DNA of 64,000 nt. It comes from Acidimicrobiales bacterium (GTDB lineage Bacteria > Actinomycetota > Acidimicrobiia > Acidimicrobiales > Bog-793). Below are positions 2,392-16,124 of the stretch, one piece after another. Location of the stretch: the NCBI GenBank assembly GCA_035294725.1, contig DATGKK010000125.1, positions 502 to 64,501 of the forward strand, given 5' to 3'. The notes under the pieces were generated by a model. It was not told the DNA's origin. It saw nothing but the letters and a program-made list of their open reading frames with translations, and did no database searches. The position numbers and the translations under genes were made by a program. Within the stretch, counting starts at the first letter, position 1. Each line of letters opens with the position of its first letter.

Positions 2392-3966
2392 TCAGGCGCC
2401 CGCCTCAGGCCCTGTCACGCTCCGTGCGCTGATGTTGCCCTCGATGTGGCTCAGGTCGCGCTCGTCGTGGGGGCGGCCGGGTGGATCGATCTCTGCCCCG
2501 GAGCCGAGGAGGCGGCGGGTGGCCGCTTCGAGATCGTCGGGCGAGACCGCGCCCACGGCCATGACGGTGCCGTCCGAGTCGACGAAGACGTTCGTCGGTA
2601 CACCTCGCACCCCGACGGCGCGCGCGAACTCACCACGCTCGTCGAGCAGGACGGTGCCGTCCACGCCCCACAGCTCGCAGAAGCTGCGTGCCTCGTCGAG
2701 AGCGTTCACGCCCTCCCAGACATTCACGAGGATGATCTCCAGGCCCGACCGGCCGGTGCGTCGGCGCAGGTCCTCGATGACCGGCGCCTCCGCGTTGCAC
2801 GGGCCTCACCAGCTGGCGAAGAAGTTGAGGATGTACTTCTTCTCTGCCCACTCGACCTGGTGGCGAAGTGCCCCGGTGTGCAGATCGGGGAGCGCGAACT
2901 CCGGCAGCGGTCTCCCGACGAGCGGGTGCTCGATCGCTTCGACCCGCGAGGCGGGCGGCCCGGTGAGGTCGTCCTCGACGACCGTGATGGATCCCGTTCC
3001 GGCGTTGGCCACGAGGACGATCCGGGGGTCCTCCGGGTGCACGATGACCCCTCCGGGGGCGGCGCCGACCGCCACCCTCGCCCACTCGAGCCCGTCGCAA
3101 CCGAGGACGCTCATGCTCCCGTCGCCGCGGTTGGCGACGTAGATCCGATCCCCTGACGGCGCCGCCGTGATCCCGACCGGAGCGTTGGGGACGGGGAGCT
3201 CCTCCCGCACGCGATGGTCGTCAAGACCGATCCGTGCGATGGTGCCGGCGAGCGAATTGACGACGAACACCTCGTCACGATCGGGCACGACCACCGCCGC
3301 GCACGGACCCTCGCCCACGACGATCCGGTCGACCGCCTCCATGGCCTCCAGGTCCGCAACGGTCACCGAGCCGGTGACGAAGTTGACGCAGTAGGCCACG
3401 TTCCGTGCCCGATCGACGTCGACGGCGCCCGCGCCGAGCTCGGCCTCCACGGTGCCGAGGCGCTCCAGACGATCCACGTCGACGATGCTGAGTGTCGAGC
3501 CCATCGTGTCGCCGCAGTACAGGCGGCGGCGCTCGACGTCGATGGCGAGCCCGGCCGGATAGGCACCCACGGGGATCGTGGCAGTCACCTCGCCCACGTC
3601 GAGGTCGATGACGGAGACCTGGTTCGACCGGGCGTCCGCGGTGAACGCCCGGCGCGAGACGGGGTCGAGCACGATGTCGATCGGTTCCTGGCCGACCGCG
3701 ATCTCTCCGATCCGCTCGAGCTTCTCGAGGTCGACGACTGCGACGCTCCCCGAGCGCGAGCAGGCGACGTAGGCGCGGTTGGTCGTGCCGTCGACGACGA
3801 CGCCCTCCGGGTCGAGGCCGACCGCGACCTCACCTCTCACGCGGATCGCGGGATCGCTCGAGCCGGTCTCGAGATCGAGCCGGCAGCTCGCGCCGTACTC
3901 GAAGGACCACTCGGTCTGGCCACCCGCCTGCGCGTCCAACGCGGTCGGGCTGTCGTCCTCCAGCAT
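2392..3966 (-). CDS. YVTN-type beta-propeller repeat protein fused to a TlpA/ResA-like thioredoxin-fold domain; in-frame TGA (2806-2808) at the first Cys of W-C-G-P-C, candidate selenocysteine
   Basis: ORFs 2806..4008 and 2392..2727 share one frame and are separated by a single TGA. Read-through gives ...GRPLPEFALPDLHTGALRHQVEWAEKKYILNFFASW[TGA]GPCNAEAPVIEDL...GVRGVPTNVFVDSDG, a complete redoxin domain. The N-terminal half has repeated V/D/G-rich ~40-aa propeller units (NRAYVA, RRAFTA, RRLYCG, NVAYCV, DEVFVV, DRIYVA, PRIVLV). The likely start is ATG 3966 (MLEDD...), preceded by GGGAGAAAGGG. The TTG at 4008 is the ORF-track maximum. Confidence 0.6.
2758..2793 (-). promoter_or_regulatory. SECIS-like mRNA hairpin downstream of the in-frame UGA
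   Basis: The mRNA reads UGA-GGCCCGUGCAAC-GCG GA GGCGC C GGUC [AUCGAG] GACC U GCGCC GA CGC. That is 12 Watson-Crick pairs with one C/U mismatch and a symmetric GA/GA internal loop. The apical loop is 6 nt and contains G. The stem starts 12 nt after UGA. Confidence 0.45.
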
Positions 3967-4088
3967 GCGGCCCTTTCTCCCGGGGGCGCGCGAAGACGGC
4001 GAGCCCAAACGGCGTACAGCGCGGGGCCATTCTTAGCATCTCCCCGCTGGCCCGGACGAGCACCCGTGAGCGGGCTCGGGAGGCCGAC

Positions 4089-5120
4089 TCAGCTCGCGGT
4101 GGCGGTCCCGAAGGTGAGGTTCGCCCGCACGTAGCGCGGGCGGATGATGTTCACGTTCTCGTTGAGCAGCGCCCAGTCCGAGGTGTTCACGTCGTAGGAG
4201 ACGATGATCTGGTGGCCGTTGGTGAGCTCGGGGTGGACGGTCGCGCCGTAGGTGTACACGCTGGTGATCCCGTTCGTGCCGTATGGCAGGGGACCGCCTT
4301 CGGTCCGGTAGAGGAAGGATCCCCGCACGAATGGGCCCATCGGGCGGCAGGCGAAGTAGGCCTTCACCACGTCGGGCAGGTAGCCGCGGGCCATCGTGAC
4401 CAGGACGTAGACGTTGCCGACCATGGTGATGCTGAACTGCGGGCCGGTGACGGTCGAGATGGCGACACCCGCCTGCGGGTCGCTCGTCCAGGCGGATCCG
4501 TCCCAGTACTGCCATGCCCCGAGCAGGTCGGTGTAGGGAGCCCGGGCGAGGTACATCCTCGTTGTGGGGACGATGCCCGGGATCGAGTTGGTCCCGTAGA
4601 TGTACACGTAGGGGCCGTGGTGCATCATCCACACTCCCCACTGGATCGTCGCGTGGAGAACGTCCACCGCCGCGAGCCGCATGCTCGGCAGGTCGTACTT
4701 CGCGATGACGGTTCCGGTTCGCACGAAGCCGAACACCGTCGGCGTCTCGGGGTAGTAGTAGGACGAGTAGGAGACGTAGAGTGCGCCGTCGCTCGCAACG
4801 GCGCCGTTGTTCCAGTAAAAGTGCCGCGAACCCCGCCGAACCCGGTAGTTCATGTACTCGAGCTCCTGCCCGTCCCGGATCCGATGGAGGGCGGTGTAGG
4901 TCGTCCCGTGCTGGATGACGACCATGTTGTGGATCATGTGCGCCACCGGCCTCGTGCCGTTCACGACGGGGTTCGGGTAGCTGTCATCGAACAGCCAGGC
5001 AACGTCACCGCCGGGGAGCGCTGCGGAGACTCCGCCGTCGCCGCCGCTCCAGCCCTCGTTGCTGTTCGCGTACGACCGCATCTGGTTGTCCAGTGCGTAG
5101 TCCGGCCTGGAGCTTGCCAC
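4089..5120 (-). CDS. probable secreted glycosidase-like beta-propeller protein (DUF4185/DUF5005-like; family call unverified)
   Basis: 343-aa ORF from GTG 5120. It is W/Y/G-rich with ...GGDVAWLFDDSY... and repeated aromatic blades. The in-frame upstream extension (5121-5351) encodes an R-rich plus hydrophobic signal-like segment but has no ATG/GTG/TTG, so the true start is uncertain. Confidence 0.55.
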   Translation of the reverse strand: MASSRPDYALDNQMRSYANSNEGWSGGDGGVSAALPGGDVAWLFDDSYPNPVVNGTRPVAHMIHNMVVIQHGTTYTALHRIRDGQELEYMNYRVRRGSRHFYWNNGAVASDGALYVSYSSYYYPETPTVFGFVRTGTVIAKYDLPSMRLAAVDVLHATIQWGVWMMHHGPYVYIYGTNSIPGIVPTTRMYLARAPYTDLLGAWQYWDGSAWTSDPQAGVAISTVTGPQFSITMVGNVYVLVTMARGYLPDVVKAYFACRPMGPFVRGSFLYRTEGGPLPYGTNGITSVYTYGATVHPELTNGHQIIVSYDVNTSDWALLNENVNIIRPRYVRANLTFGTATAS

Positions 5121-5486
5121 CGACGCCTGGGCGAGCTCGTCCGGGCAGGTAGCGGTCGCCGTCGTGGCTGCGGAGACGGTCGCTCCCCGTGTGCCCGGCG
5201 CCGCACCGCCCGTGGTCGCACCGGCCCGGGGCGAGACGGCTCCAGTGGCGGCCGCCGCCAGGACCAGCGCACTGGACGCGACGACCCAGGCGACCCGCCA
5301 CGCCGGCTTGCCCGGAAGGTCGGTGTGCGCGAGACGACGCCGAGCCCTTATGCCCCTACCCCCTGGTGCCGATGGTCCTTCGCAGGTGTGCCGCTGCGTC
5401 GCGGCCAGCCTATCCGAGCGAAGTGAGCGGGAGGGAGCCGGCCCGAGGTGTCGCGGGACCTCGGGCCGGGGCGAGCCGTGGGCGGG

Positions 5487-7061
5487 TCACGTGGCGGGCG
5501 CGGCTACGTCTGCTGGCGCCGCCACGGCTACGTCTGCTGGCGCCGCCACGGCCCGGGAGAGCTCGATCGTGCCATCGTCGACCTGTCGGCCGCGAAGGAG
5601 TCGCAGGTCGAGCAGGTAGTTCTGGTGCAGGCGCCACGGCGTCCGCGTCGCCTGCTTGGGCAGCCGGTCGAGAGAACGCCGGACGTAACCGGAGGTGAGC
5701 CCGATGAACGGTTCGGTGCCCATCCCGGGGTCGGGTGCCCTCGGGATCGCGAGGTCGTAGCCCTGCTCCTCCATGAACTTGAGCAGGCGGCAGACGTACC
5801 GGGCGCCGAGGTCCGCCTTCAAGGTCCACGACGCGTTCGTGTACCCGAAGGTGGATGCCAGGTTCGGCAGGCCCGTGAACATGATCCCCTTGTAGCTGAA
5901 GGTCGCCGAGAGATCGACAGCGTGCCCGTCCACGTCGAGCTCGATGCCGCCCAGGAGCTGAAAGTTGAGGCCCGTGGCCGTGACGACGACCTCGGCCTCC
6001 AGCTCCCCGCCGGAGGCGAGCCGCAGGCCGTGCTCGGTGAAGGCCTCGATCTCGTCGGTCACGACGCTGACCGCCTCTGCCCTGATGGCCTCAAAGAGGT
6101 CGGAGTCCGGGACGAAGCACATCCTCTGGTCCCAGGGGTCGTAGCGCGGGTTGAAGTGGGTGTCGACGTCGTAGCTGGACGGCAGGCTCTTTGCCACCCC
6201 CTTTCGGAGCACCCTCCTCATGAAGCGGGGCGCCCGCTGGCAGATCTGGTAGAGCACGATGGCGGCCAGGATGTTCTTCCAGCGCACCAGCGGGTAGACG
6301 GCGCGAGCCGGGAGGTGTCGACGCAGCAGGGCGGCGAAGGGATCGAGCGTCGGGACCGAGGCAACGTAGGACGGGGACCGCTGGAGCATGGTGACGTGGG
6401 CTGCCTTCTCCGCCATGGCCGGCACCAGAGTGACGGCCGTCGCACCGCTGCCGATCACGACCACCCGCTTGTTCTCGTAGTCGAGGTCCTCGGGCCAGTG
6501 CTGGGGATGGACGATCGTCCCCTCGAAGCGGTCCGCCTCGGGGAGCTCTGGCACATAGCCGGCGTCGTAGCGGTAGTAGCCACAGTTCAGGTAGAGGAAG
6601 GAGCAGGTGAGCTCCGAGCTGCGGCCCGTCGTCTCGTCGGCCACTTCGAGATGCCAGCGCGCTCTCGGGGTGGACCAACTGGCCTTCACGACGCGCTGGC
6701 GGTAGCGGATGTGCCGGTCGAGACCGTAGGCGGCGGCGGTCTCCCGGATGTAGCCGAGGATCGAGGGTCCATCGGCGAGCGTCTTCAGCTCGGTCCAGGG
6801 GTTGAAGGAGTAGCCGAGGGTGAACATGTCGGAGTCCGAGCGGATGCCCGGGTACCGGAACAGGTCCCAGGTGCCGCCCATGGACGCTCGCGCCTCGAGG
6901 ATGACGAAGCTCTTGCCCGGGCAGGCGTTCGAGAGGTGGCAGGCGGCCCCGATCCCCGAGAGGCCGGCACCCACCACGACCACATCGAAGTGCTCGGGCT
7001 CCGCAGAGAGGTAGTGCGGGGCCGTGCGCATGAGGGTAGCCGGCGTCCGCGTCTCGCTCAC
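5487..7061 (-). CDS. flavin-containing / Baeyer-Villiger monooxygenase (class B, EthA-like)
   Basis: 524-aa ORF with two Rossmann motifs (VVVGAGLSGIGAA and VIGSGATAV) and the BVMO fingerprint FEGTIVHPQHWP. Confidence 0.9.
   Translation of the reverse strand: MSETRTPATLMRTAPHYLSAEPEHFDVVVVGAGLSGIGAACHLSNACPGKSFVILEARASMGGTWDLFRYPGIRSDSDMFTLGYSFNPWTELKTLADGPSILGYIRETAAAYGLDRHIRYRQRVVKASWSTPRARWHLEVADETTGRSSELTCSFLYLNCGYYRYDAGYVPELPEADRFEGTIVHPQHWPEDLDYENKRVVVIGSGATAVTLVPAMAEKAAHVTMLQRSPSYVASVPTLDPFAALLRRHLPARAVYPLVRWKNILAAIVLYQICQRAPRFMRRVLRKGVAKSLPSSYDVDTHFNPRYDPWDQRMCFVPDSDLFEAIRAEAVSVVTDEIEAFTEHGLRLASGGELEAEVVVTATGLNFQLLGGIELDVDGHAVDLSATFSYKGIMFTGLPNLASTFGYTNASWTLKADLGARYVCRLLKFMEEQGYDLAIPRAPDPGMGTEPFIGLTSGYVRRSLDRLPKQATRTPWRLHQNYLLDLRLLRGRQVDDGTIELSRAVAAPADVAVAAPADVAAPAT
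5502..5549. repeat. perfect 24-bp x2 tandem duplication inside the 3-prime end of the monooxygenase gene
   Basis: ggctacgtctgctggcgccgccac occurs at 5502-5525 and again at 5526-5549. It encodes the repeated VAAPADVA C-terminal tail. Confidence 0.9.
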
Positions 7062-7913: not shown

Positions 7914-9607
7914 GAACCCGAGTTGCCATCGTGGGCAGCGGGCCGGGTGGCGCGACGGCCGCCATGGTGCTCGCCGAGGCGGGCCTCGACGTCGTGGTCT
8001 TCGAGAAGGGCGCCAATTTCTTCACCGACCTCACCTCCGAGCGCCCGGGCACGGTCTTTTCGAATGACGAGCTGAAAGACGACCGGAGCTTCGCCGAGCC
8101 CGACTCCATCGCCGAGCCCCGGGTCTTTCGCACCTCCCCGTCGGACTCGAACCCGTTCGTCGGGGCAGTCCAGTCGCTCCCGCAGACGGTGGGAGGGGGC
8201 GCCGTGCACTGGGACGCGAAGACTCCCCGCTACTGGGACATCGACTTCCAGAAGCTGAGCCTGCTCGGGCCGCTGCCCGGAGCCGCCGTCGAGGACTGGC
8301 CGTTCACCTACGACGAGATCGCCCCCCACTACGACGCCGTCGAGGCGCTCATCGGCGTCCAGGGCGACGTGGCGAGCCTCCCGGAGCTGACACTCCGCCA
8401 CGCTCCCCGCTCGGGAAACTTCCCGATGCCGCCCGGCCCCCCTCAGTACTCGTCCCTCCTCGCCGCCAAGGGCGCGAGGTCAGTTGGCCTCCACCCCTTC
8501 CCTGCGGCGATGGCCATCAACAGCGTGCCCTATGCCGGTCGTCCGGCCTGCAACGACTGCGGGTTCTGCTCCGGCTACGGCTGCCCGATCCTCGCGAGGA
8601 TCGGCGCCCTCGCACCGCTCCGCCGAGCGCTGCTCGCCGGCGCCGAGGTGCGGGAGCGCTCGGTGGTCGTGCGGGTGGGGCACCAGGGGCGCAAGGTGGA
8701 CGGCGTGCTCGTGATGAGGGAGGGCGGCGGCTACTACCGGGAGCACTTCGACGCCGTCGTGCTCGCCGGGAACGCGATCGAGTCCTCCCGTCTCGCCCTT
8801 CTCTCCGAGCTGCCGGATCCGTACGGGACCACCGGTCGCTACGTGATGTTCCACTGGTTCACCGACGCCTCTGGCCTGTTCTTCTCGGAGCGGCTGCATG
8901 CCTACCGGGGGCGCGACCACACCCACGACATCGACGACTTTGCCGACCCCGACTTCCCCGGGGCGCGGGCCGCCGCCAGAGAGGCCGGCTTGCCCTACTT
9001 CCGGGCGGGCAAGGTCGAGATGGGCGGGACCGATCGCCCTCTCGGAGAGGCGCACCAGTACCTCGAGATCTTGCCGGTGCTCTCACCCCGCAAGCCGTTC
9101 GGGGTCCCGTTCAAGAAGCTGATGCGGGCGAGCCTGCTGCGTGACCGCCTGCTCGGCCTCACCCTCATGGGCGAGGACTTGCCCTACGCGACCAACCGTG
9201 TCGACCTCGACCCGTCGGTCCGCGACTGGCGGGGCCACCCGGTCGCCCGTATCACCTACAGCCCCGGGCGCTATGAGCTGGCTGCCCAGGCCTTCTACCT
9301 CCCCTGGCTGGTGAAGCTGCTCGACGGCGCCGGTGCGGACGTGTCGATCGCGATCCCCCAGGACCCCTCGAAGACCTTTCCGATCGGCGCCAGCCCCGTG
9401 ATCGACACCGAGCACGTCATGGGGGGGATGAGGATGGGCACGAACCCCCGCACGAGCGTCACGGACGGCACGGGCCGGCACCACCAGCTCGACAACCTCT
9501 TCGTGGCCGACGGCTCGGTCTTCCCGACCTCCGGGGGGCACAACCCGACGCTGACTATCATGGCGACGGCGCTGAGGAACTCGAGGCAGTGGGCACGGTC
9601 GTTGTGA
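7910..9607 (+). CDS. GMC family FAD-dependent oxidoreductase (large subunit)
   Basis: 565-aa ORF with the N-terminal motif VAIVGSGPGGATAAMVLAEAGLDVVVFEKG and the C-terminal GMC motif HVMGGMRMG...LFVADGSVFPTSGGHNPTLTIMA. Confidence 0.9.
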   Translation: MRTRVAIVGSGPGGATAAMVLAEAGLDVVVFEKGANFFTDLTSERPGTVFSNDELKDDRSFAEPDSIAEPRVFRTSPSDSNPFVGAVQSLPQTVGGGAVHWDAKTPRYWDIDFQKLSLLGPLPGAAVEDWPFTYDEIAPHYDAVEALIGVQGDVASLPELTLRHAPRSGNFPMPPGPPQYSSLLAAKGARSVGLHPFPAAMAINSVPYAGRPACNDCGFCSGYGCPILARIGALAPLRRALLAGAEVRERSVVVRVGHQGRKVDGVLVMREGGGYYREHFDAVVLAGNAIESSRLALLSELPDPYGTTGRYVMFHWFTDASGLFFSERLHAYRGRDHTHDIDDFADPDFPGARAAAREAGLPYFRAGKVEMGGTDRPLGEAHQYLEILPVLSPRKPFGVPFKKLMRASLLRDRLLGLTLMGEDLPYATNRVDLDPSVRDWRGHPVARITYSPGRYELAAQAFYLPWLVKLLDGAGADVSIAIPQDPSKTFPIGASPVIDTEHVMGGMRMGTNPRTSVTDGTGRHHQLDNLFVADGSVFPTSGGHNPTLTIMATALRNSRQWARSL

Positions 9608-11565
9608 CGGCTACGGAGATCGACGTACCGTCCGGAGGGTCCTCGGACCAGAGCACCGAGCGAGACCCCGACCTACTTGGCACCCTCGAGGTCGAGCTGT
9701 CGGCGCGATCCCCTCGCCGGTGGAGACGCGTCGCCGCCGGGCTCGGTGCGACAGCGTTCTTCCTCCTCGTGGGGTTCCTCTGCTACTGGCCCGACTCGCC
9801 CATCGCGAGCGGCCGGATCGTGACCCGGCCCACGAGCGACCTCGCACAGGGCCTGTGGTTCGTCGAGTGGTTTGCCTTCGCCCTCACCCACGGGCTCAAC
9901 CCCTTTTACACCCACTACCTGCTCGCCCCGAAGGGCGCGAACCTTGCCCTCGACAACACGGCGCCGCTCCTCAGCCTCCTCGTGATGCCCGTCACGCTGC
10001 TCGCGGGCCCGCTCGCTGCCTTCAACCTCCTGTTCCGGCTGGGCGTGGGGCTCTCGGGGGCAAGCACCTACTTCATGCTCCGCCGGTACACGAGCTGGTG
10101 GCCCGCCGCAGCGCTCGGGGGCCTCGTGTTCGAGCTCAGCCCGTACCTGATGGGGCACGCTCACCGTCACGACTTCCTCACCTTCGTCGTCTTCGTGCCG
10201 ATGCTGGTCCTTCTCGTCGACGACTGGCTCTGGTCGTGCCGCAGGGGACCGGTCGCCTCCGGGTTGCTCGTCGGCCTCGTCGCGGCGCTGCAGTTCCTCG
10301 TCTCGGTGGAGGTGCTCGCCGGGACGGCGGTGGTGCTCGCCGGGACGGTGGCCGTCCTGGCAGCCCGCCACCGACAGGCGGTCCGCTCCCGGCTCGCGAG
10401 GCTGTGGAAAGGCGGCCTCGCCGCTGGAGGGCTCTTCCTCGTCCTCACGGGATACCCGCTCTGGATGCTGCTCTACGGGCCGCAGCGCCCCGCGGCCGGC
10501 CTGCACGACCTCTCAAATCTCGCCCACTACCACGGCGACCTCCTCGCGCCGCTGTTCCCGAGCAGCTTCACCTGGTGGCACTTCAGCAACGTCGCGCAGC
10601 GGTTCGTGTACGCGAGCCGGGTGGAGGACGGCTTCTATCTTGGCGCCCCGCTCATCGTTCTGCTCGGCTGCCTCGCCATCCGTTTCCGGCGCGATCGCGT
10701 CGTCGCGATCGGAGCCCTTGTCGCCATCGCCGCCTTTGTCCTCGGGCTCGGCCCCCGGCTCTACGTCGACGGGAAGGACCTGCACGTGCCGCTCCCGTTC
10801 GCGCTCCTCACCCACCTGCCCTTGCTGAGGAACCTCGAGCCGGCTCGGATGACCCTGTTCATGTGGCTCGGCGCCGTCACCGTCCTCGCCGTAGGGCTCG
10901 ACCGGCTCCGCGCCGCCGGCTGGCGGTGGCGATCCCCGGCCGCCACCGAGCGAGGGCGCCACCTGAGGTCGGCATCTCCCGGGGCGTGGCCGCGGGCGCT
11001 GCTCGCCTGCGTCGCCGTCGCCGTCGCGCTCGCCCCTGTGATGCCGCGGCTGCCGATCGCTTCGAAACGTGTGGGTGCGCCGCCGTTCTTCGTGACGAGC
11101 CGCGACCTCCGGCTCGTCCCGACCGGTGCGCTCGTGCTGACCTTCCCCTACAACCTCGCTCCCTACGACGCCCCGATGGTCTGGCAGGTGACCTCCCGCA
11201 TGAGGTACCGCATCCTCGGCGGGGAGGCAACGGTTCCCGGCCCGGAGGGCGTTGCGCTCAGCCACCAGCGTCCTCAGGCCCCGGCACCCCTCGCGACGCT
11301 GCTCGTCTCGTCGTGGCGCAACTCACACGGACAGTGGGACCTGCATCCGCCCGACGGACCGGAGCTCGTTCCGATGCTGCGCTCGTACTTACGTCGCGAG
11401 GGTGTCGACGACGTGCTCGTGGTCCAAAAGGCGCTCCACTCCGTCCTTGTGGCGAGGATCGTCACCGAGGCCCTCGGCAGCTCGCCGCTGGTGGTGGGCC
11501 GTGTCGACGTCTGGCTACATGTGCGCTCCGCCCTCGATGGTCGACACCCCGATCGCCGCAGCTGA
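9589..11565 (+). CDS. large polytopic membrane protein, GT-C-fold glycosyltransferase-like
   Basis: 658-aa ORF with more than 10 hydrophobic helices followed by a soluble C-terminal domain. The start is GTG 9589 or GTG 9604 (GTGA overlap with the GMC stop). The family call is architecture-based only. Confidence 0.6.
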   Translation: MGTVVVTATEIDVPSGGSSDQSTERDPDLLGTLEVELSARSPRRWRRVAAGLGATAFFLLVGFLCYWPDSPIASGRIVTRPTSDLAQGLWFVEWFAFALTHGLNPFYTHYLLAPKGANLALDNTAPLLSLLVMPVTLLAGPLAAFNLLFRLGVGLSGASTYFMLRRYTSWWPAAALGGLVFELSPYLMGHAHRHDFLTFVVFVPMLVLLVDDWLWSCRRGPVASGLLVGLVAALQFLVSVEVLAGTAVVLAGTVAVLAARHRQAVRSRLARLWKGGLAAGGLFLVLTGYPLWMLLYGPQRPAAGLHDLSNLAHYHGDLLAPLFPSSFTWWHFSNVAQRFVYASRVEDGFYLGAPLIVLLGCLAIRFRRDRVVAIGALVAIAAFVLGLGPRLYVDGKDLHVPLPFALLTHLPLLRNLEPARMTLFMWLGAVTVLAVGLDRLRAAGWRWRSPAATERGRHLRSASPGAWPRALLACVAVAVALAPVMPRLPIASKRVGAPPFFVTSRDLRLVPTGALVLTFPYNLAPYDAPMVWQVTSRMRYRILGGEATVPGPEGVALSHQRPQAPAPLATLLVSSWRNSHGQWDLHPPDGPELVPMLRSYLRREGVDDVLVVQKALHSVLVARIVTEALGSSPLVVGRVDVWLHVRSALDGRHPDRRS

Positions 11566-13253: not shown

Positions 13254-14867
13254 ATGGCACCGCAGCGTGCGAGTACGAGCTCCGGGCAGCCTCCCGACCA
13301 GTCGCGGCGTCGACCGGGCTGGCGCCGCCTGGTTGTCGTCCTCGTGCCGGCCGCCGTTGCCGTCGCGCTGTGCGCCGTCGACCTGTCCGGCCGGAGCATC
13401 TGGATCGACGAGTCGGCGACACTCAGCATCGCGAGCCAGCACGGAGCGGCCCTCTGGGCTGCCATGCGGCGGGACGGCGGCAACATGCTCGCCTACTACG
13501 CCCTTGTGCACCTGCTGTTCTCCTGGTTCGGTGACGGCACGGCCGTGCTGCGTGCGCCGTCGGTCGTGGCGGCTGGTCTCACCGCCGGGGCGGTGGCGGC
13601 ACTTGGAGCCCGCCTGTTCCGTCCCGTCGTCGGGCTCGCCGCCGGCCTTCTCACGGCCGTCAGCGTGGCGTACGTGTACTGGGGCCAGAACGGACGCGCC
13701 TACGCCTTCATGTTCGCCTTCGTCGCCCTGTCCTATGTCGCCTTTGCCCACCTCGTGACCGGCGACTCCCGGCGCCGGCCGGGCCACGCCTCGCGCCTGG
13801 CGGCGATCGGCTACAGCGCGGCTCTCGTCCTCGCGCTCTACATGAGCTTCGTCGCCGTCCTCGTTGTGCCGGCGCAGCTGGTCTCGCTCTACTGGTACCG
13901 GCGCCGGTTCGGCCTCGTCGCGGCGTGCCTCGCGGTGGCGGCGGTCGCCTCGGTTCCCATCGTGCTCCTTGCACACGCAAGGGGGTCCTCGCAGCTGTTC
14001 TGGGTCCCCCGCCCGAACCTCCAGTCGGAGTCGGAGGTCGTCCAAGCCGTGGCCGGCTCCGGCCTGCCGCCGGTGTTCCACAACACCGCCTCGAGCGTTC
14101 CGCTTCTCGTCCTCACTGTGCTCGGCGTCCTCGCGGCCGCCACCGCCGGTCTCCGCCGTGCCAGCCGGCAGCCACTGGCCGACGGGATCTCCCCCGCTCG
14201 GTGGGCGGGTGCGCTCGTCGCCGCCTGGCTCGTCGTGCCGACGGTGCTCGATTTCGCCGAGTCGCTCGTCGGCCAGTCGGTCTTCGAGTCCCGTTACCTG
14301 CTCATGTCGGCGCCCGCCGTGGCGCTGCTCCTCGCGTGGGGGCTGTTCGAGTCCGGGCTCGCTCCGGCCCTCGCATGGTGCGGGCTGGCGGGCCTGCTCG
14401 TGCTCCGCGGCGCTCAGATTGTGCCGACCTACGGCGTATCGCCGGAGGACTGGCACGCGGCGACGGCCTACGTGCTCGCTCGGGAACGCCCCGGTGACTG
14501 CGCGCTGTTCTACCCCTCCGACGTCCGCCAGGCGTTCGACTACTACCTTCTCCACTCGAGTGCTCCCCGGAGCTCGTGGCCGAGACCCGTCCTGCCGACG
14601 GCGCCGTTCACGGAGGTCCGCCCCTACGTCGAGGACTACGCGACGCTCGGCGGCGCGCAGCTCGACGCCGTGGCCCGATCCTGCCGGCGGGTCTGGTTCG
14701 TTTCCTCCCACGCCGGGGTGCCGAACGGCACGCCGCTCTCCCGGGTCCACTACTCCCGCTACCTCGCCCTCGTGCGCGGGCTCGAGTCCCGCTACGTTGG
14801 CCACCGCCTCGTCCGAATGAGCTACGCAAGCCAGATCGACATCTGGCTGTTCCAGGACCGCCGGTGA
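13254..14867 (+). CDS. polytopic membrane glycosyltransferase, GT-C (family 39 / mannosyltransferase-like)
   Basis: After the first TM comes SIWIDESATLSIA, the typical LWxDEaxS loop of bacterial GT39/PMT_2 proteins. Multiple TM helices and a soluble C-terminal domain follow. The start is ATG 13254 or GTG 13218. Confidence 0.7.
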   Translation: MAPQRASTSSGQPPDQSRRRPGWRRLVVVLVPAAVAVALCAVDLSGRSIWIDESATLSIASQHGAALWAAMRRDGGNMLAYYALVHLLFSWFGDGTAVLRAPSVVAAGLTAGAVAALGARLFRPVVGLAAGLLTAVSVAYVYWGQNGRAYAFMFAFVALSYVAFAHLVTGDSRRRPGHASRLAAIGYSAALVLALYMSFVAVLVVPAQLVSLYWYRRRFGLVAACLAVAAVASVPIVLLAHARGSSQLFWVPRPNLQSESEVVQAVAGSGLPPVFHNTASSVPLLVLTVLGVLAAATAGLRRASRQPLADGISPARWAGALVAAWLVVPTVLDFAESLVGQSVFESRYLLMSAPAVALLLAWGLFESGLAPALAWCGLAGLLVLRGAQIVPTYGVSPEDWHAATAYVLARERPGDCALFYPSDVRQAFDYYLLHSSAPRSSWPRPVLPTAPFTEVRPYVEDYATLGGAQLDAVARSCRRVWFVSSHAGVPNGTPLSRVHYSRYLALVRGLESRYVGHRLVRMSYASQIDIWLFQDRR

Positions 14868-14885
14868 GCGCCGAGCGCGCGGGCA

Positions 14886-16070
14886 TTAATCAAAGCCGGC
14901 GACGGGATGCTGGTCGCGCAGGTACTCGGCGAACAGCGGCACGGTGAAGTCGATCTGACCCCGCCGTGGCGACCAGACGAGCCCTTTTTGGAGCAGCCCG
15001 TCGCGATGCGGTGACGTCCTGCGCTGGTCGGTCGCGCCCCATGCCCGGCTGACCTCGGCCGTGGAGTACGGGCCGGCTCCGAGCGAGGCCATGGCGGCGA
15101 GGTAGCGCTGCTCGGCGTCGCTCGCCATTGCGAGGCGGGTCCCGTAGAAGGTCCGGCTCAGCTGTTCCCGGACGAGGTCGTGGACCTCCCGGACGTCGCT
15201 CAAGGTGATCGGAGACCGCTCCGCGGCGTTCCACAGCTCGCGCCCGTACTCCTGGAGGAAGTAGGGGTAACCGGCGGCGAGCCGCACGACCTCGCGCGCG
15301 GCCTCGAGCTCGAACTCGACCCCGAGGGTGGCGGCGGGCTTCACGAGGGCCACCCGCGCCTCCGGGTCGCGAAGGCTCCCGAGCTCGCGGTACTCGAATA
15401 ACCGGTCGGCGTAGGGCTTCGCCCGCATCAGGCGGACCTTGAGGTCGGGGAGGCCTGCTCCGACAAGTGCCACGGGGAGTGCCTCCCGGCTGATCGTCTG
15501 GAACGCCATGCAGACTGCCGCCAGGCAGGCTGCATCGAGGTTGTGCATCTCGTCCACGAGGAACAGGGCGCCGCTGCCGGCCGAGCGCGCCGCCTCGCCG
15601 ATCTCGCGGAGCAGGTCGACGAGGTCCTGCTCGGGGTCGCCCGAGTCGGCCACTCCTCGTGTAGGCGCGACGTCGAGCTTCAACTGGACTCCTCCGGGGC
15701 CAACGAGGCTGAAGGCCTTCACGACACCGAGCGCCCGGTCGACCCGCTCCTTCATCCGGTACCGCCGGCTCATCTCGCGAAGCAGCCTGGAGGCCATCTG
15801 GGCGAAGGTCGCTCGGAAGTCCGGCTGGGAGCCAACCTCCTGGACATCGGTCGTCGCCCAGCCCGCCTCGGATGCGAGGACGTCGAACTCGAGGAGGAGC
15901 ACCGTCTTGCCGACGCCCCGCAGCCCGTAGTACACGAGGCTGCGGTCCGAGCCGCCGCCGGAGAGGATCTCGACGAGCGAGCTGAAGTCCTCGAGGTCGC
16001 GGTCCCGGCCGGCCAGGTAGGGCGGCTTGCGGCCTGCGCCCGGGGTGTAGGGGTTGTCCCGGCGTTGCAC
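14886..16070 (-). CDS. AAA-type ATPase (ATPase_2/AAA_16-like) with C-terminal winged-helix
   Basis: 394-aa ORF. N-terminus NPYTPGAGRKPPYLAGRDRDLEDF, Walker A GLRGVGKT, Walker B LFLVDEMH, and C-terminus LLQKGLVWSPRRGQIDFTVPLFAEYLR. Confidence 0.7.
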   Translation of the reverse strand: MQRRDNPYTPGAGRKPPYLAGRDRDLEDFSSLVEILSGGGSDRSLVYYGLRGVGKTVLLLEFDVLASEAGWATTDVQEVGSQPDFRATFAQMASRLLREMSRRYRMKERVDRALGVVKAFSLVGPGGVQLKLDVAPTRGVADSGDPEQDLVDLLREIGEAARSAGSGALFLVDEMHNLDAACLAAVCMAFQTISREALPVALVGAGLPDLKVRLMRAKPYADRLFEYRELGSLRDPEARVALVKPAATLGVEFELEAAREVVRLAAGYPYFLQEYGRELWNAAERSPITLSDVREVHDLVREQLSRTFYGTRLAMASDAEQRYLAAMASLGAGPYSTAEVSRAWGATDQRRTSPHRDGLLQKGLVWSPRRGQIDFTVPLFAEYLRDQHPVAGFD

Positions 16071-16082
16071 GAGACGAATCTA
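16071..16082 (-). promoter_or_regulatory. -10 box TAGATT located 6 nt upstream of the GTG start (candidate leaderless promoter of the ATPase gene)
   Basis: The minus strand reads TAGATT-cgtctc-GTG(16070). There is no Shine-Dalgarno sequence. It lies in a locally AT-rich 65-bp spacer. Confidence 0.4.
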
Positions 16083-16124
16083 GCTGTGTCTAAGCCATGA
16101 ATATGCCTGCTTAGAAAATGCTAG
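16080..16124. repeat. 45-bp composite inverted repeat in an AT-rich spacer
   Basis: CTAGC-tgtgt-CTAAGC (16080-16095), a 13-nt centre, then GCTTAG-aaaat-GCTAG (16109-16124). Both outer 5-mers and both inner 6-mers are exact reverse complements. Confidence 0.7.

What the first reader, a model, noticed from the sequence alone, without database searches (positions are those of the whole stretch)
2392..3966. In-frame TGA exactly at the nucleophilic Cys of a W-C-G-P-C motif: candidate selenoprotein joining a YVTN beta-propeller to a TlpA-like redoxin
- **Same frame:** minus-strand ORFs 2806..4008 and 2392..2727 are in the same frame (2392..4008 is 1617 nt, or 539 codons). The only stop between them is TGA at 2806-2808.
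- **Read-through sequence:** ...PEFALPDLHTGALRHQVEWAEKKYILNFFASW-[TGA]-GPCNAEAPVIEDLRRRTGRSGLEIILVNVWEG...GVRGVPTNVFVDSDGTV.
- **Position of the TGA:** it sits where the TlpA/ResA/thioredoxin motif (NFWASWCxPC, or WCGPC) has its attacking cysteine. The resolving Cys, the E-x-P after the motif and the cis-Pro region (GVPT) are all kept.
- **Neither half is complete alone:** the upstream ORF ends one residue before the active site, and the downstream ORF would start after it.
- **Interpretation:** Sec/Cys replacement at the first position of CxxC (UxxC) is a known pattern in bacterial thioredoxin-fold selenoproteins. I do not recognise a Sec-redoxin fused to a ~390-aa YVTN-type propeller as a described selenoprotein family.
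Basis: partly seen in the sequence, partly recalled or inferred. Interest (0 to 1): 0.85.

Follow-up and report, generated by a model that had tools for sequence, protein, structure and literature searches.

The report
Selenocysteine propeller-redoxin fusion gene
The in-frame TGA is almost certainly a selenocysteine codon in one 524-residue protein that joins a seven-bladed beta-propeller to a TlpA-like redoxin; the gene family is common in soil actinobacteria, and every database entry I saw for it is cut short at that TGA.

Summary
**Observation: confirmed.** Minus strand 2392..3966 is one reading frame with a single internal stop, TGA 2806-2808. It falls where the attacking Cys of a WCGPC redoxin motif would be. 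It is the only TGA in the 64 kb window with coding-type base composition on both sides.

**Interpretation: supported by comparative evidence.**
- The codon after ...FASW is TGA in all 80 related genome loci fetched. It is never TAA, TAG, TGC or TGT.
- GPCNA[E/A]AP follows in frame in all 80.
- dN/dS downstream of the TGA is about 0.2-0.3.
- A conserved hairpin lies 12-50 nt after the UGA and shows some compensatory changes.
- tRNA-Sec, and in some loci selA, selB and selD, lie next to the gene in 19 of 80 loci.
- I found no Cys-form ortholog of the fused architecture in 1.84 billion representative proteins or in a metagenome DNA scan (87 Sec forms, 0 Cys forms).

**Weak points.**
- The window has no Sec machinery, so this genome's ability to insert Sec is untested.
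- The hairpin fails one rule of the published bacterial SECIS model (a G early in the loop).

**Novelty and function.** UxxC TlpA/redoxin selenoproteins are a known kind. The propeller fusion is not in NCBIfam or in the selenoprotein literature I could search. I file it as a new variant of a known kind. Its substrate is unknown.

The parts
2392..3966 (-). Complete coding sequence of the propeller-redoxin selenoprotein: 524 residues, ATG 3966-3964, Sec codon 2808-2806, terminal TGA 2394-2392.
   Evidence: One frame with a single internal TGA. GC3 is 0.89 upstream and 0.87 downstream of the TGA. Orthologs are colinear across the TGA in 80 of 80 loci.
3970..3980 (-). Shine-Dalgarno-like GGGAGAAAGGG, ending 3 nt before the ATG.
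   Evidence: Read directly from the sequence. Inference only.
2971..3846 (-). Seven-bladed YVTN/YncE-type beta-propeller domain (residues 41-332). Family-conserved Cys residues are C69, C193 and C222.
   Evidence: Pfam PF21783 and NCBIfam TIGR02276 score above their cutoffs. The AlphaFold2 model has mean pLDDT 87.9 and 28 strands in 7 blades. Best Foldseek matches are 1l0q, 3bws, 5c2v_B and YncE.
2536..2919 (-). TlpA/ResA/CcmG-like redoxin (thioredoxin-fold) domain, residues 350-477.
   Evidence: Pfam Redoxin 63.3 bits and AhpC-TSA 53.4 bits. PDB sequence matches are DsbE, CycY, ResA and TlpA.
2797..2811 (-). Active-site motif W-U-G-P-C (residues 386-390). Sec is encoded by TGA 2808-2806 and the resolving Cys390 by TGC 2799-2797.
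   Evidence: W386, the Sec column, G388, P389 and C390 are at least 97% conserved in 78 family members. The codon is TGA in 80 of 80 loci.
2757..2794 (-). SECIS-like hairpin inside the coding sequence. It has a lower stem, a 5-bp middle stem GGCGC/GCGCC, a conserved C.U mismatch, a 4-bp upper stem GGUC/GACC, and the apical loop AUCGAG (2778-2773). The loop begins 27 nt after the UGA.
   Evidence: Present in the centroid fold of the window sequence. 83% of cells are paired across 77 sequences, against 31-54% when the 3' partners are slid; 6 pairs show changes on both sides. RNAalifold independently recovers the core.

Best explanation
**What it is.** A genuine bacterial selenoprotein gene. One mRNA encodes a 524-residue soluble protein with no signal peptide or membrane segment. 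It consists of a disordered N-terminus, a seven-bladed YVTN/YncE-type beta-propeller, a roughly 20-residue linker, and a TlpA-like thioredoxin-fold domain whose active site reads W-U-G-P-C.

**How the UGA is read (inferred).** UGA 2808-2806 is decoded as selenocysteine by SelB.GTP.Sec-tRNA(Sec). SelB is recruited by the hairpin that starts 12 nt downstream, inside the coding sequence.

**How the protein works (inferred from the chemistry of the TlpA/ResA family).**
- The selenolate of U387 attacks a disulfide, or another oxidised sulfur, on a substrate.
- Cys390 resolves the mixed intermediate into an intramolecular selenenylsulfide.
- A cellular reductant then recycles the selenenylsulfide.
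- The propeller most likely acts as the platform that binds the substrate or partner and gives specificity.

**Shown.** The gene structure, the conservation of TGA, coding constraint across the TGA, the hairpin, and the genomic link to the sel genes in relatives.

**Inferred.** Sec insertion in this particular organism, the catalytic cycle, cytoplasmic location, and the role of the propeller. The substrate is unknown.
For: 1. **Truncated database entries.** All 55 closest database proteins (49-65% identity) end exactly at ...FASW.
2. **TGA conservation in genomes.** In 80 loci from different GTDB species (201 matched in total), the next codon is TGA in 80 of 80. GPCNA[E/A]AP and 100-170 further codons follow in frame.
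3. **Coding constraint.** dN/dS downstream of the TGA is 0.21-0.29, as low as or lower than upstream. Amino-acid identity downstream is 69-79%.
4. **TGA is still a stop here.** It is the commonest stop of the window's other ORFs, so the code is not reassigned. Only this one TGA in 64 kb has coding signal on both sides.
5. **tRNA-Sec nearby.** tRNA-Sec(UCA) lies in 16 of 80 loci, mostly 300-450 bp upstream of the gene.
6. **Other sel genes nearby.** SelA, SelB and SelD score above NCBIfam equivalog cutoffs immediately beside the gene in L020, and SelA and SelB do in L032. tblastn finds SelA and SelB within 10 kb in 8 loci, 7 of them also with SelD.
7. **Conserved hairpin.** 83% of cells are paired against 31-54% in slid controls. 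Pair 34-45 takes six pair types. One example: Ile ATC at column 34 goes with the rare Asp codon GAT at column 45.
8. **Position of the TGA.** It aligns with the nucleophilic Cys of the redoxin/ResA/TlpA profiles.
9. **No Cys-form fusion.**
   - Representative-protein search: none among 1.84e9 proteins.
   - Metagenome DNA scan open to TGA, TGC and TGT: 87 orthologs, all TGA. The 20 Cys matches were unrelated single-domain or other TlpA proteins.
Against: - **No Sec machinery in the window.** There is no tRNA-Sec, SelA, SelB or SelD in the 64 kb, so this organism's ability to insert Sec is unverified.
- **One SECIS rule fails.** The published bSECIS model (PMC13188914, Fig. [quoted passage not shown] The loop here is AUCGAG, or UCGA in other family members.
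- **The hairpin alone is not significant.** The window copy folds no better than shuffled sequence (z = -0.64), which is expected at 71% GC.
- **Confounded conservation.** The hairpin lies under a strongly conserved peptide (NAEAPVIEDLRRR), so part of its conservation may come from protein constraint.
- **No experimental evidence.** No selenium labelling, proteomics or ribosome profiling was available.
- **Function is inference only.** No neighbouring gene is conserved across the whole family.
Confidence: 0.9

Rival explanations
1. **Lost Sec trait.** The family is a selenoprotein family, but this organism has lost the ability to insert Sec. The UGA then terminates translation and leaves a 386-residue propeller with a useless redoxin stub.
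For: No sel gene and no tRNA-Sec occur anywhere in the 64 kb window. Some relatives keep them next to the gene.
Against: - The 137 codons after the TGA are intact and have GC3 of 0.87.
- dN/dS against eight relatives is 0.21-0.29.
- The hairpin is intact.
- Most relatives (61 of 80) also have no sel genes within 10 kb, so absence from the window says little.
Confidence: 0.05
2. **Read-through without Sec.** The UGA is read by a near-cognate tRNA (Trp, Cys or Arg) or through a reassigned code. The product would be a full-length protein without selenium.
For: - The hairpin lacks the canonical G in the first two loop positions.
- A structured region after a stop codon can promote read-through in general (my own knowledge).
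Against: - TGA is the commonest stop codon of the window's other ORFs, so the code is not reassigned.
- The gene sits beside tRNA-Sec or selABD in 19 of 80 relatives, far more often than chance allows for a single-copy tRNA gene.
- The UGA falls exactly at the redox-active position, where Sec/Cys exchange is the known pattern.
- If Cys were the residue inserted, TGC or TGT would be expected in some of the 167 orthologs. None has it.
Confidence: 0.03
3. **Error or pseudogene.** A TGC or TGT codon was miscalled as TGA, or the gene is a recent pseudogene.
For: It is a single-base difference from a Cys codon, and I could not inspect the reads.
Against: The same TGA occurs in 80 of 80 independent genome assemblies and in 87 orthologous metagenome contigs at 49-67% protein identity. 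Both sides are under purifying selection.
Confidence: 0.01
4. **Two separate genes.** A propeller protein is followed by an independently translated small redoxin fragment.
For: Public gene callers annotate it this way: N-terminal pieces are named YncE or YVTN family protein, and C-terminal fragments of 60-131 aa exist as separate database entries.
Against: - Conservation starts at the very first codon after the TGA (GPCNAEAP in 80 of 80).
- The first in-frame start codon is 26 codons later and would remove the CxxC motif.
- The upstream ORF ends one residue before the active site.
- The separately called C-terminal fragments start at varying internal positions, after the motif.
Confidence: 0.01

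Closest known systems
UxxC selenoproteins of the TlpA-like/redoxin thioredoxin fold. [quoted passage not shown]
   Same: - Same fold family: Pfam Redoxin and AhpC-TSA score above their cutoffs.
- Same motif logic: Sec replaces the N-terminal attacking Cys of CxxC, and the resolving Cys is kept.
- Same decoding route by SelB and a hairpin.
- The metagenome scan also turned up other Sec-TlpA proteins with the identical W-U-G-P-C-N-A-E-A-P motif.
   Different: - This domain sits at the C-terminus of a ~390-residue region carrying a seven-bladed YVTN propeller.
- There is no signal peptide or membrane anchor.
- I found no Cys-form ortholog.
- The family is found in Acidimicrobiia and Thermoleophilia (Actinomycetota).
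- It often sits next to selC and selABD.
- None of the papers I could search mentions a propeller, YVTN or YncE in connection with a selenoprotein.
NCBIfam NF041054, 'ResA-like WAxxUGC motif-containing protein' (a curated selenoprotein family)
   Same: It is a ResA/TlpA-like selenoprotein with extra sequence beyond the redoxin domain, and it was the best-scoring selenoprotein model for the query.
   Different: - The score is 46.8 bits against a cutoff of 300.
- The motif is W-A-x-x-U-G-C, not A-S-W-U-G-P-C, so Sec occupies a different motif context.
- That family has no propeller.
- This gene is not a member.
Cys-type TlpA, ResA, CcmG/DsbE and CycY thiol-disulfide oxidoreductases
   Same: They are the best PDB sequence matches to residues 344-488 (3gl3, 1kng, 4nmu, 1st9, 1jfu). 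The WCxPC-type motif and the GVPT cis-Pro region are shared.
   Different: Those are small (140-190 aa), Cys-containing, membrane-anchored or periplasmic proteins that act in cytochrome c or copper-centre maturation. This protein contains Sec, is fused to a propeller and appears to be cytoplasmic.
YVTN/YncE seven-bladed beta-propellers (Methanosarcina S-layer YVTN domain 1l0q, E. coli YncE 3vgz, hydrazine synthase beta 5c2v_B)
   Same: The repeat signature is shared (TIGR02276, 78.6 bits). The predicted fold matches, with Foldseek E-values of 6e-22 to 1e-17.
   Different: Sequence identity is only 15-24%. None of these carries a redoxin domain, and their functions differ (surface layer, DNA binding, hydrazine synthesis), so they do not point to a substrate.

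Membership tests
Bacterial selenoprotein gene (Sec-UGA recoding) | An in-frame UGA conserved as UGA (or exchanged with Cys codons) among orthologs | tested here: met
   TGA in 80 of 80 genome loci and in 87 of 87 orthologous metagenome contigs. Never TAA or TAG.
Bacterial selenoprotein gene (Sec-UGA recoding) | Protein-coding conservation continues in frame on both sides of the UGA | tested here: met
   GPCNA[E/A]AP follows directly in all loci. dN/dS downstream is 0.21-0.29. GC3 is 0.87-0.89 on both sides.
Bacterial selenoprotein gene (Sec-UGA recoding) | The UGA aligns with a redox-active Cys of Cys-containing homologs (a Cys/Sec pair) | tested here: met
   The stop falls at the first Cys of WCxPC in the Redoxin, ResA, TlpA and DsbE alignments. 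Cys-type homologs in the metagenome scan read FFASW-C-GPCNAEAP. They are distant paralog-level homologs only, not orthologs.
Bacterial selenoprotein gene (Sec-UGA recoding) | A bSECIS hairpin that fits the consensus model: loop of 3-9 nt, upper stem of 4-16 bp, G in the first two loop positions, 16-37 nt from UGA to loop, MFE of -7.5 kcal/mol or lower (PMC13188914, Fig. 2 legend) | tested here: inconclusive
   Met: loop of 4-6 nt, stem of 4-5 bp continued by 5 more bp, spacing of 27-28 nt, centroid hairpin energy of -19.1 kcal/mol. Not met: the loop is AUCGAG or UCGA, with no G in its first two positions. bSECISearch itself could not be run.
Bacterial selenoprotein gene (Sec-UGA recoding) | selA, selB, selC and selD present in the same genome | not testable with these tools
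   None in the 64 kb window, and the rest of the genome is not available. In relatives, tRNA-Sec lies in 16 of the 80 loci fetched and SelA/B/D in 8 loci.
Bacterial selenoprotein gene (Sec-UGA recoding) | Selenium demonstrated in the polypeptide | not testable with these tools
   Needs 75Se labelling or mass spectrometry.
TlpA-like / Redoxin thioredoxin-fold oxidoreductases (PF08534, cd02966) | Profile score above the curated cutoff | tested here: met
   PF08534 scores 63.3 bits against 26.6, and PF00578 scores 53.4 against 26.
TlpA-like / Redoxin thioredoxin-fold oxidoreductases (PF08534, cd02966) | A CxxC-type active site and the cis-Pro loop | tested here: met
   W386-U387-G388-P389-C390 and R454-G455-V456-P457 are each at least 97% conserved in 78 family members.
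TlpA-like / Redoxin thioredoxin-fold oxidoreductases (PF08534, cd02966) | Extracytoplasmic location through a signal peptide or membrane anchor, typical of TlpA, ResA and CcmG (my own knowledge of the family) | tested here: not met
   No hydrophobic N-terminal segment occurs in any of 81 members. The hydropathy maximum of every member examined in detail, including all 12 above 1.6, lies inside a propeller strand. The N-terminal 37 residues are variable and predicted disordered. This was a simple hydropathy test, not SignalP.
NF041054 ResA-like WAxxUGC selenoprotein | Equivalog score of at least 300 bits and the WAxxUGC motif | tested here: not met
   46.8 bits. The motif here is ASWUGPC.
YVTN / YncE seven-bladed beta-propeller | Repeat and domain profiles above cutoff, and a seven-bladed fold | tested here: met
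   TIGR02276 scores 78.6 against 27.85 and PF21783 scores 38.2 against 27.1. The AlphaFold2 model has pLDDT 87.9 and 7 x 4 strands over residues 41-332. The top Foldseek match is 1l0q.
Published selenoprotein families 'Thiol-disulfide isomerase-like protein' and 'Redoxin family protein' (PMC13188914, table in the section 'Prokaryotic selenoproteins') | Sequence membership, meaning similarity to the representative sequences MGB1650493.1 and HEU0032618.1 | not testable with these tools
   The representative sequences could not be retrieved, and the BSepDB supplement is not held. Domain type and the UxxC motif agree. Whether those published families include propeller fusions is unknown.

The most novel reading that the evidence does not exclude
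This would be an undescribed, Sec-obligate selenoprotein family. It would be a cytoplasmic propeller-redoxin fusion with no Cys-form orthologs, widespread in soil Acidimicrobiia and Thermoleophilia. In part of that lineage it would be physically coupled to selC and selABD, which suggests it is a principal reason these actinobacteria keep the Sec trait. Its propeller would present a specific, still unknown substrate to a selenolate active site.
Probability: 0.45. Interest if true: 0.7.

Novelty: new variant of a known kind. Interest (0 to 1): 0.6.

Why it matters
**Annotation.** Every public protein entry I saw for this family is truncated at the Sec codon and named 'YncE/YVTN family protein' or 'hypothetical protein'. 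The redoxin half is missing or called as a fragment. At least 201 species-level genomes are affected. A curated model would correct the annotation of a common gene of soil actinobacteria.

**Biology.**
- Families with no Cys-form ortholog are rare. The deep-Sep paper (PMC12013277) says only one selenoprotein without Cys-containing homologs, GrdA, was previously known. This family does have Cys homologs, but only at the level of distant single-domain relatives.
- Homology filters that require Cys orthologs can therefore miss or misfile such families.
- The position of the gene beside selC and selABD suggests that it helps maintain the Sec trait in these lineages.
- The propeller offers a handle for finding the substrate of a selenium-dependent reductase.

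Tried and rejected
1. **Sec machinery in the window.** ARAGORN and Rfam at gathering thresholds found no tRNA and no RNA family. tblastn with SelA, SelB and SelD from relatives found nothing in the window.
2. **Full-length searches and fold.** I therefore searched only the C-terminal 137 residues and folded only the N-terminal 386.
3. **Apparent Cys-form fusions.** P0148 and P0141 looked like fusions in the representative search. They are frameshifted chimeric ORFs from error-prone assemblies.
4. **Conserved neighbours.** No gene is shared across the family. An antisense 'cluster' was a shadow-ORF artefact. Clade-specific neighbours gave no coherent functional hint: an acetyl-CoA-synthetase-like gene plus GPR1/FUN34/YaaH in Gaiellaceae, and MFS transporters and a subtilase elsewhere.
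5. **A second same-frame TGA.** TGA 5487-5489 lies between ORFs 5487..7061 and 4089..5486. The 366 nt after it lack any codon-position GC signal (0.75/0.76/0.80), so I treat this as chance.
6. **Literature.** No paper held both 'selenoprotein' and 'YVTN'. Nothing relevant came up for beta-propeller plus SECIS, Acidimicrobiia or Gaiellales. Haft & Tolstoy 2025 is not held, and the BSepDB supplement is not held.
7. **Source of the window.** The window's own protein is not in the 5.8-billion-protein collection (best hit 65% identity), so I could not trace the source genome.
Full report
**1.

- On the minus strand, 2392..4008 is a single frame of 539 codons. Its only internal stop is TGA at 2806-2808. 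The flanks read ...EWAEKKYILNFFASW-[TGA]-GPCNAEAPVIEDLRRRTGRSGLEI....
- The ORF listing reports the two pieces as 2806..4008 and 2392..2727.
- The most plausible start is ATG 3966-3964, preceded by GGGAGAAAGGG. This gives 386 residues, the recoded position, and 137 more, or 524 in all.
- With Cys in place of the stop, Pfam finds two domains above cutoff:
  - a YNCE-type propeller at residues 50-313 (38.2 bits, cutoff 27.1);
  - a Redoxin/AhpC-TSA domain at residues 350-477 (63.3 and 53.4 bits, cutoffs 26.6 and 26).
- The window is 71% G+C. Real genes show GC3 near 0.9, and both pieces of this frame do (0.89 and 0.87).
- I tested every TGA on both strands for stop-free 50-codon flanks with a coding-type GC1/GC2/GC3 pattern on both sides. 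Exactly one passed, 2806-2808.

**2. Comparative evidence that the TGA is decoded**

- *Truncated database entries.* A search with the merged protein returned 55 close homologs at 49-65% identity and 360-434 residues. They covered only about 70% of the query. Every one ends exactly at ...[FV]FASW.
- *Genome loci.* Fetching DNA for relatives from one genome per GTDB species gave 201 matching species, of which 80 loci were kept.
  - They come from Acidimicrobiales and Acidimicrobiaceae, Gaiellaceae and other Thermoleophilia, one Streptosporangiaceae MAG, and MAGs labelled only Actinomycetes or Actinomycetota.
  - In 80 of 80 the codon after W is TGA. It is never TAA, TAG, TGC or TGT.
  - GPCNA[E/A]AP and another 100-170 codons follow in the same frame.
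  - The search patterns did not include the codon after W, so Cys forms would have been recovered had they existed among the best matches.
- *Purifying selection.* Between the window and eight relatives, dN/dS for the 95 codons after the TGA is 0.21-0.29, against 0.16-0.37 for the 120 codons before it. Amino-acid identity after the TGA is 69-79%, higher than in the propeller.
- *No code reassignment.* TGA is the most frequent terminator of the window's other ORFs.

**3. Link to the selenocysteine machinery**

- ARAGORN finds tRNA-Sec (anticodon UCA) in 16 of the 80 loci. In most it lies 300-450 bp upstream of the gene's 5' end.
- In L020 the divergent neighbours are, in order, SelA (386 bits, cutoff 268), SelB (253, cutoff 242), SelD (374, cutoff 125) and tRNA-Sec.
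- In L032 the order is selA, selB, selD, selC, and then the gene.
- tblastn finds SelA and SelB within 10 kb in eight loci, seven of them also with SelD. In total, 19 of 80 loci carry some part of the machinery.
- For a single-copy tRNA gene in a genome of several megabases, this is far beyond chance.
- The window itself contains none of these genes. Its closest relatives (L001-L013) also lack them nearby, so this absence says little. Even so, Sec competence of this particular organism remains untested.

**4. The RNA element**

- An ungapped alignment of 77 sequences covers 62 nt, with the UGA at columns 7-9. It shows a hairpin across columns 21-58, which is window 2794-2757.
- Its parts are a lower stem, a 4-5 bp GC-rich middle stem, an always-present C.U mismatch (columns 32 and 47), a 4-5 bp upper stem, and a 4-6 nt loop (AUCGAG in the window).
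- 83% of cells form standard pairs, against 31-54% when the 3' partners are slid by 1-3 columns. Six pairs show changes on both sides.
- Pair 34-45 is the most telling, because it takes six pair types. Column 34 is the first base of the Val/Ile/Phe codon, and column 45 is the third base of the Asp/Glu codon. Five of the eight sequences with Ile ATC at column 34 use the rare Asp codon GAT at column 45. That is a choice at a synonymous site which keeps the pair.
- RNAalifold, run without my structure, recovers the core of the same hairpin.
- Against the published bSECIS model (PMC13188914, Fig. 2 legend):
  - met: loop size, stem length, energy (-19.1 kcal/mol for the centroid hairpin), and UGA-to-loop spacing (27-28 nt, allowed 16-37);
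  - not met: a G in the first two loop positions.
- The same review says a subset of predicted bSECIS elements fails to satisfy the model. BSepDB reports that 87.4% of its entries have canonical SECIS elements (PMC13326102).
- Two caveats apply. The hairpin lies under the best-conserved peptide of the protein, so protein and RNA constraints are partly confounded. The window copy alone does not fold better than shuffles (z = -0.64).

**5. No Cys-form ortholog found**

- *Representative-protein search.* I ran full HMMER with the 137 C-terminal residues against 1.84 billion representatives.
  - The closest hits (50-73% identity) are all 60-131 residue fragments that begin after the CxxC motif. 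These are mis-called C-terminal pieces of Sec forms.
  - Intact WCxxC proteins appear only at 35% identity or less, and none of them has a propeller.
  - The two apparent fusions, P0148 and P0141, are frameshifted chimeras.
Of these, 100 had TGA and 20 had TGC or TGT.
  - 87 of the TGA contigs are orthologs of the window protein (45% identity or more), and 53 of these are near full length.
  - None of the 20 Cys contigs is an ortholog. They match only the redoxin domain, most at 32-40% identity, and lack the propeller.
- Counting genome loci and metagenome contigs together, the ratio is 167 Sec forms to 0 Cys forms.

**6. What the protein looks like**

- AlphaFold2 on the N-terminal 386 residues, with 62 aligned sequences, gives mean pLDDT 87.9. 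Residues 41-332 form a seven-bladed propeller of 28 strands. Residues 1-37 are disordered. The start of the redoxin domain is poorly modelled without its other half.
- Foldseek's best matches are the archaeal YVTN S-layer domain 1l0q, Leptospira Lp49, hydrazine synthase beta and E. coli YncE.
- By sequence, the redoxin domain is closest to DsbE/CcmG, CycY, ResA and TlpA.
- Across 78 complete family members:
  - the motif N-x-F-A-S-W-U-G-P-C-N-A-x-A-P and the R-G-V-P cis-Pro loop are at least 97% conserved;
  - Cys69, Cys193 and Cys222 in the propeller are 100% conserved;
  - Cys28 is 96% conserved and Cys430 is 94% conserved.
- No member has a hydrophobic N-terminal segment. The hydropathy maximum of every member examined in detail, including all 12 above 1.6, lies inside a propeller strand. 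Unlike classical TlpA, ResA and CcmG, the protein is therefore probably cytoplasmic. This rests on hydropathy alone.

**7. How it most likely works**

- *Shown:* a single gene whose UGA is conserved, flanked by coding sequence, followed by a conserved hairpin, and genomically tied to the sel genes in relatives.
- *Inferred, decoding:* SelB.GTP.Sec-tRNA(Sec) binds the hairpin and inserts Sec at residue 387.
- *Inferred, catalysis (from thioredoxin-fold chemistry):* the selenolate attacks an oxidised sulfur on a substrate. Cys390 resolves the adduct into a selenenylsulfide. A cellular reductant regenerates the enzyme.
- *Inferred, role of the propeller:* it supplies partner or substrate recognition. 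The invariant propeller cysteines could be structural, could bind a metal, or could be an internal redox target. I could not tell these apart without coordinates.
- *No help from neighbours.* Gene neighbourhoods differ between clades, so they do not name a pathway:
  - window: AMP-dependent ligase, a DUF4185-like protein, a flavin monooxygenase and a GMC oxidoreductase;
  - Gaiellaceae: an acetyl-CoA-synthetase-like gene plus GPR1/FUN34/YaaH;
  - Acidimicrobiales: the sel genes.

**8. Comparison with what is known**

- Sec at the first position of CxxC in TlpA-like, redoxin or Prx-like domains is an established kind of bacterial selenoprotein. [quoted passage not shown]
- The metagenome scan itself turned up a different Sec-TlpA family with a signal peptide and the identical WUGPCNAEAP motif, including a Sec/Cys pair (L183 and L098).
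- The redoxin half is therefore not new in kind. Four things are not described in anything I could search:
  - the fusion to a YVTN propeller;
  - the apparent lack of any Cys ortholog;
  - the actinobacterial distribution;
  - the coupling to the sel operon.
- The database and literature checks behind that statement were these:
  - NCBIfam has no model for the family. The best selenoprotein model, NF041054, scores 46.8 bits against a cutoff of 300.
  - Sources name the truncated pieces 'YncE family protein', 'YVTN family beta-propeller protein' or 'hypothetical protein'.
  - No paper in the library holds both 'selenoprotein' and 'YVTN'.
  - The 2026 review, deep-Sep and BSepDB never mention a propeller or YncE.
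- I could not read Haft & Tolstoy 2025 or the BSepDB tables. Homology-based pipelines may have filed members under a generic redoxin family. The claim that the family is undescribed is therefore probable, not proven.

**9. Verdict**

- I put 0.9 on 'genuine selenoprotein gene'.
- I rate it a new variant of a known kind, and of moderate to good interest.

Noticed in passing
L183 (TGA) and L098 (TGT), metagenome contigs; also L119, L129, L154, L112, L188 and L163: This is a different family: a signal peptide, a roughly 330-residue N-terminal domain of unknown type, and a TlpA-like domain with ...NFFAHW-[U/C]-GPCNAEAP. L183 carries TGA and the nearly identical L098 carries TGT, which makes a clean Sec/Cys pair between close relatives. 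The active-site decapeptide is the same as in the propeller family.
   Followed up: partly
L030 8864-9469 (-), directly beside tRNA-Sec (9624-9717): An AhpD-core-domain protein sits next to selC. It gives weak hits to curated AhpD-type selenoprotein families (GSU3128 family, ArsM/AhpD selenoprotein). It could be a second selenoprotein in that locus.
   Followed up: no
L081 (GCA_042734225.1, labelled Streptomyces coelicoflavus), gene at 10001-11110 plus its continuation after the TGA: A family member with TGA, GPCNAEAP and the hairpin occurs on a contig of an assembly labelled as a Streptomyces. It lies between a transposase (7945-9165) and a phage-type integrase (14690-16123). No sel genes lie within 10 kb. 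It could be horizontal transfer, contamination, or a cultivable carrier worth testing.
   Followed up: partly
window 4089-5486 and 5487-7061 (-): A second pair of same-frame ORFs is separated by TGA 5487-5489: a flavin monooxygenase followed by a DUF4185-like protein. The 366 nt after the TGA have no codon-position GC signal, so I read this as chance. That stretch does encode a signal-peptide-like segment (AWRVAWVVASSALVLAAAATGAVS) upstream of the first ATG, GTG or TTG, so the DUF4185-like gene may start at a non-canonical codon.
   Followed up: partly
L051 5738-8647 (-) and equivalent positions in 15-24 Gaiellaceae loci: In the Gaiellaceae clade the gene is preceded, divergently, by an acetyl-CoA-synthetase-like AMP-binding enzyme and a GPR1/FUN34/YaaH (acetate/succinate transporter family) gene. 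L081 also has a YaaH-family gene nearby, and the window has an AMP-dependent ligase immediately downstream (604-2304). I could not tell whether this is functional or coincidental.
   Followed up: partly
P0148 and P0141 (representative-protein library): These database 'proteins' run through the family gene in several reading frames. They are probably products of indel-rich assemblies, and they mimic Cys-free fusions in searches.
   Followed up: yes
P0121 (1393 aa, representative-protein library): This was the top hit of the C-terminal search (E = 1.3e-32), through 19 matched stretches. Its best-scoring stretch aligns to query residues 95-121, near the C-terminal end of the redoxin domain. The protein also carries repeated VWCCPWC motifs. 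It appears to be a highly repetitive protein unrelated to the finding.
   Followed up: no
window 1-64000: ARAGORN found no tRNA gene and Rfam found no match above gathering score anywhere in the 64 kb.
   Followed up: no
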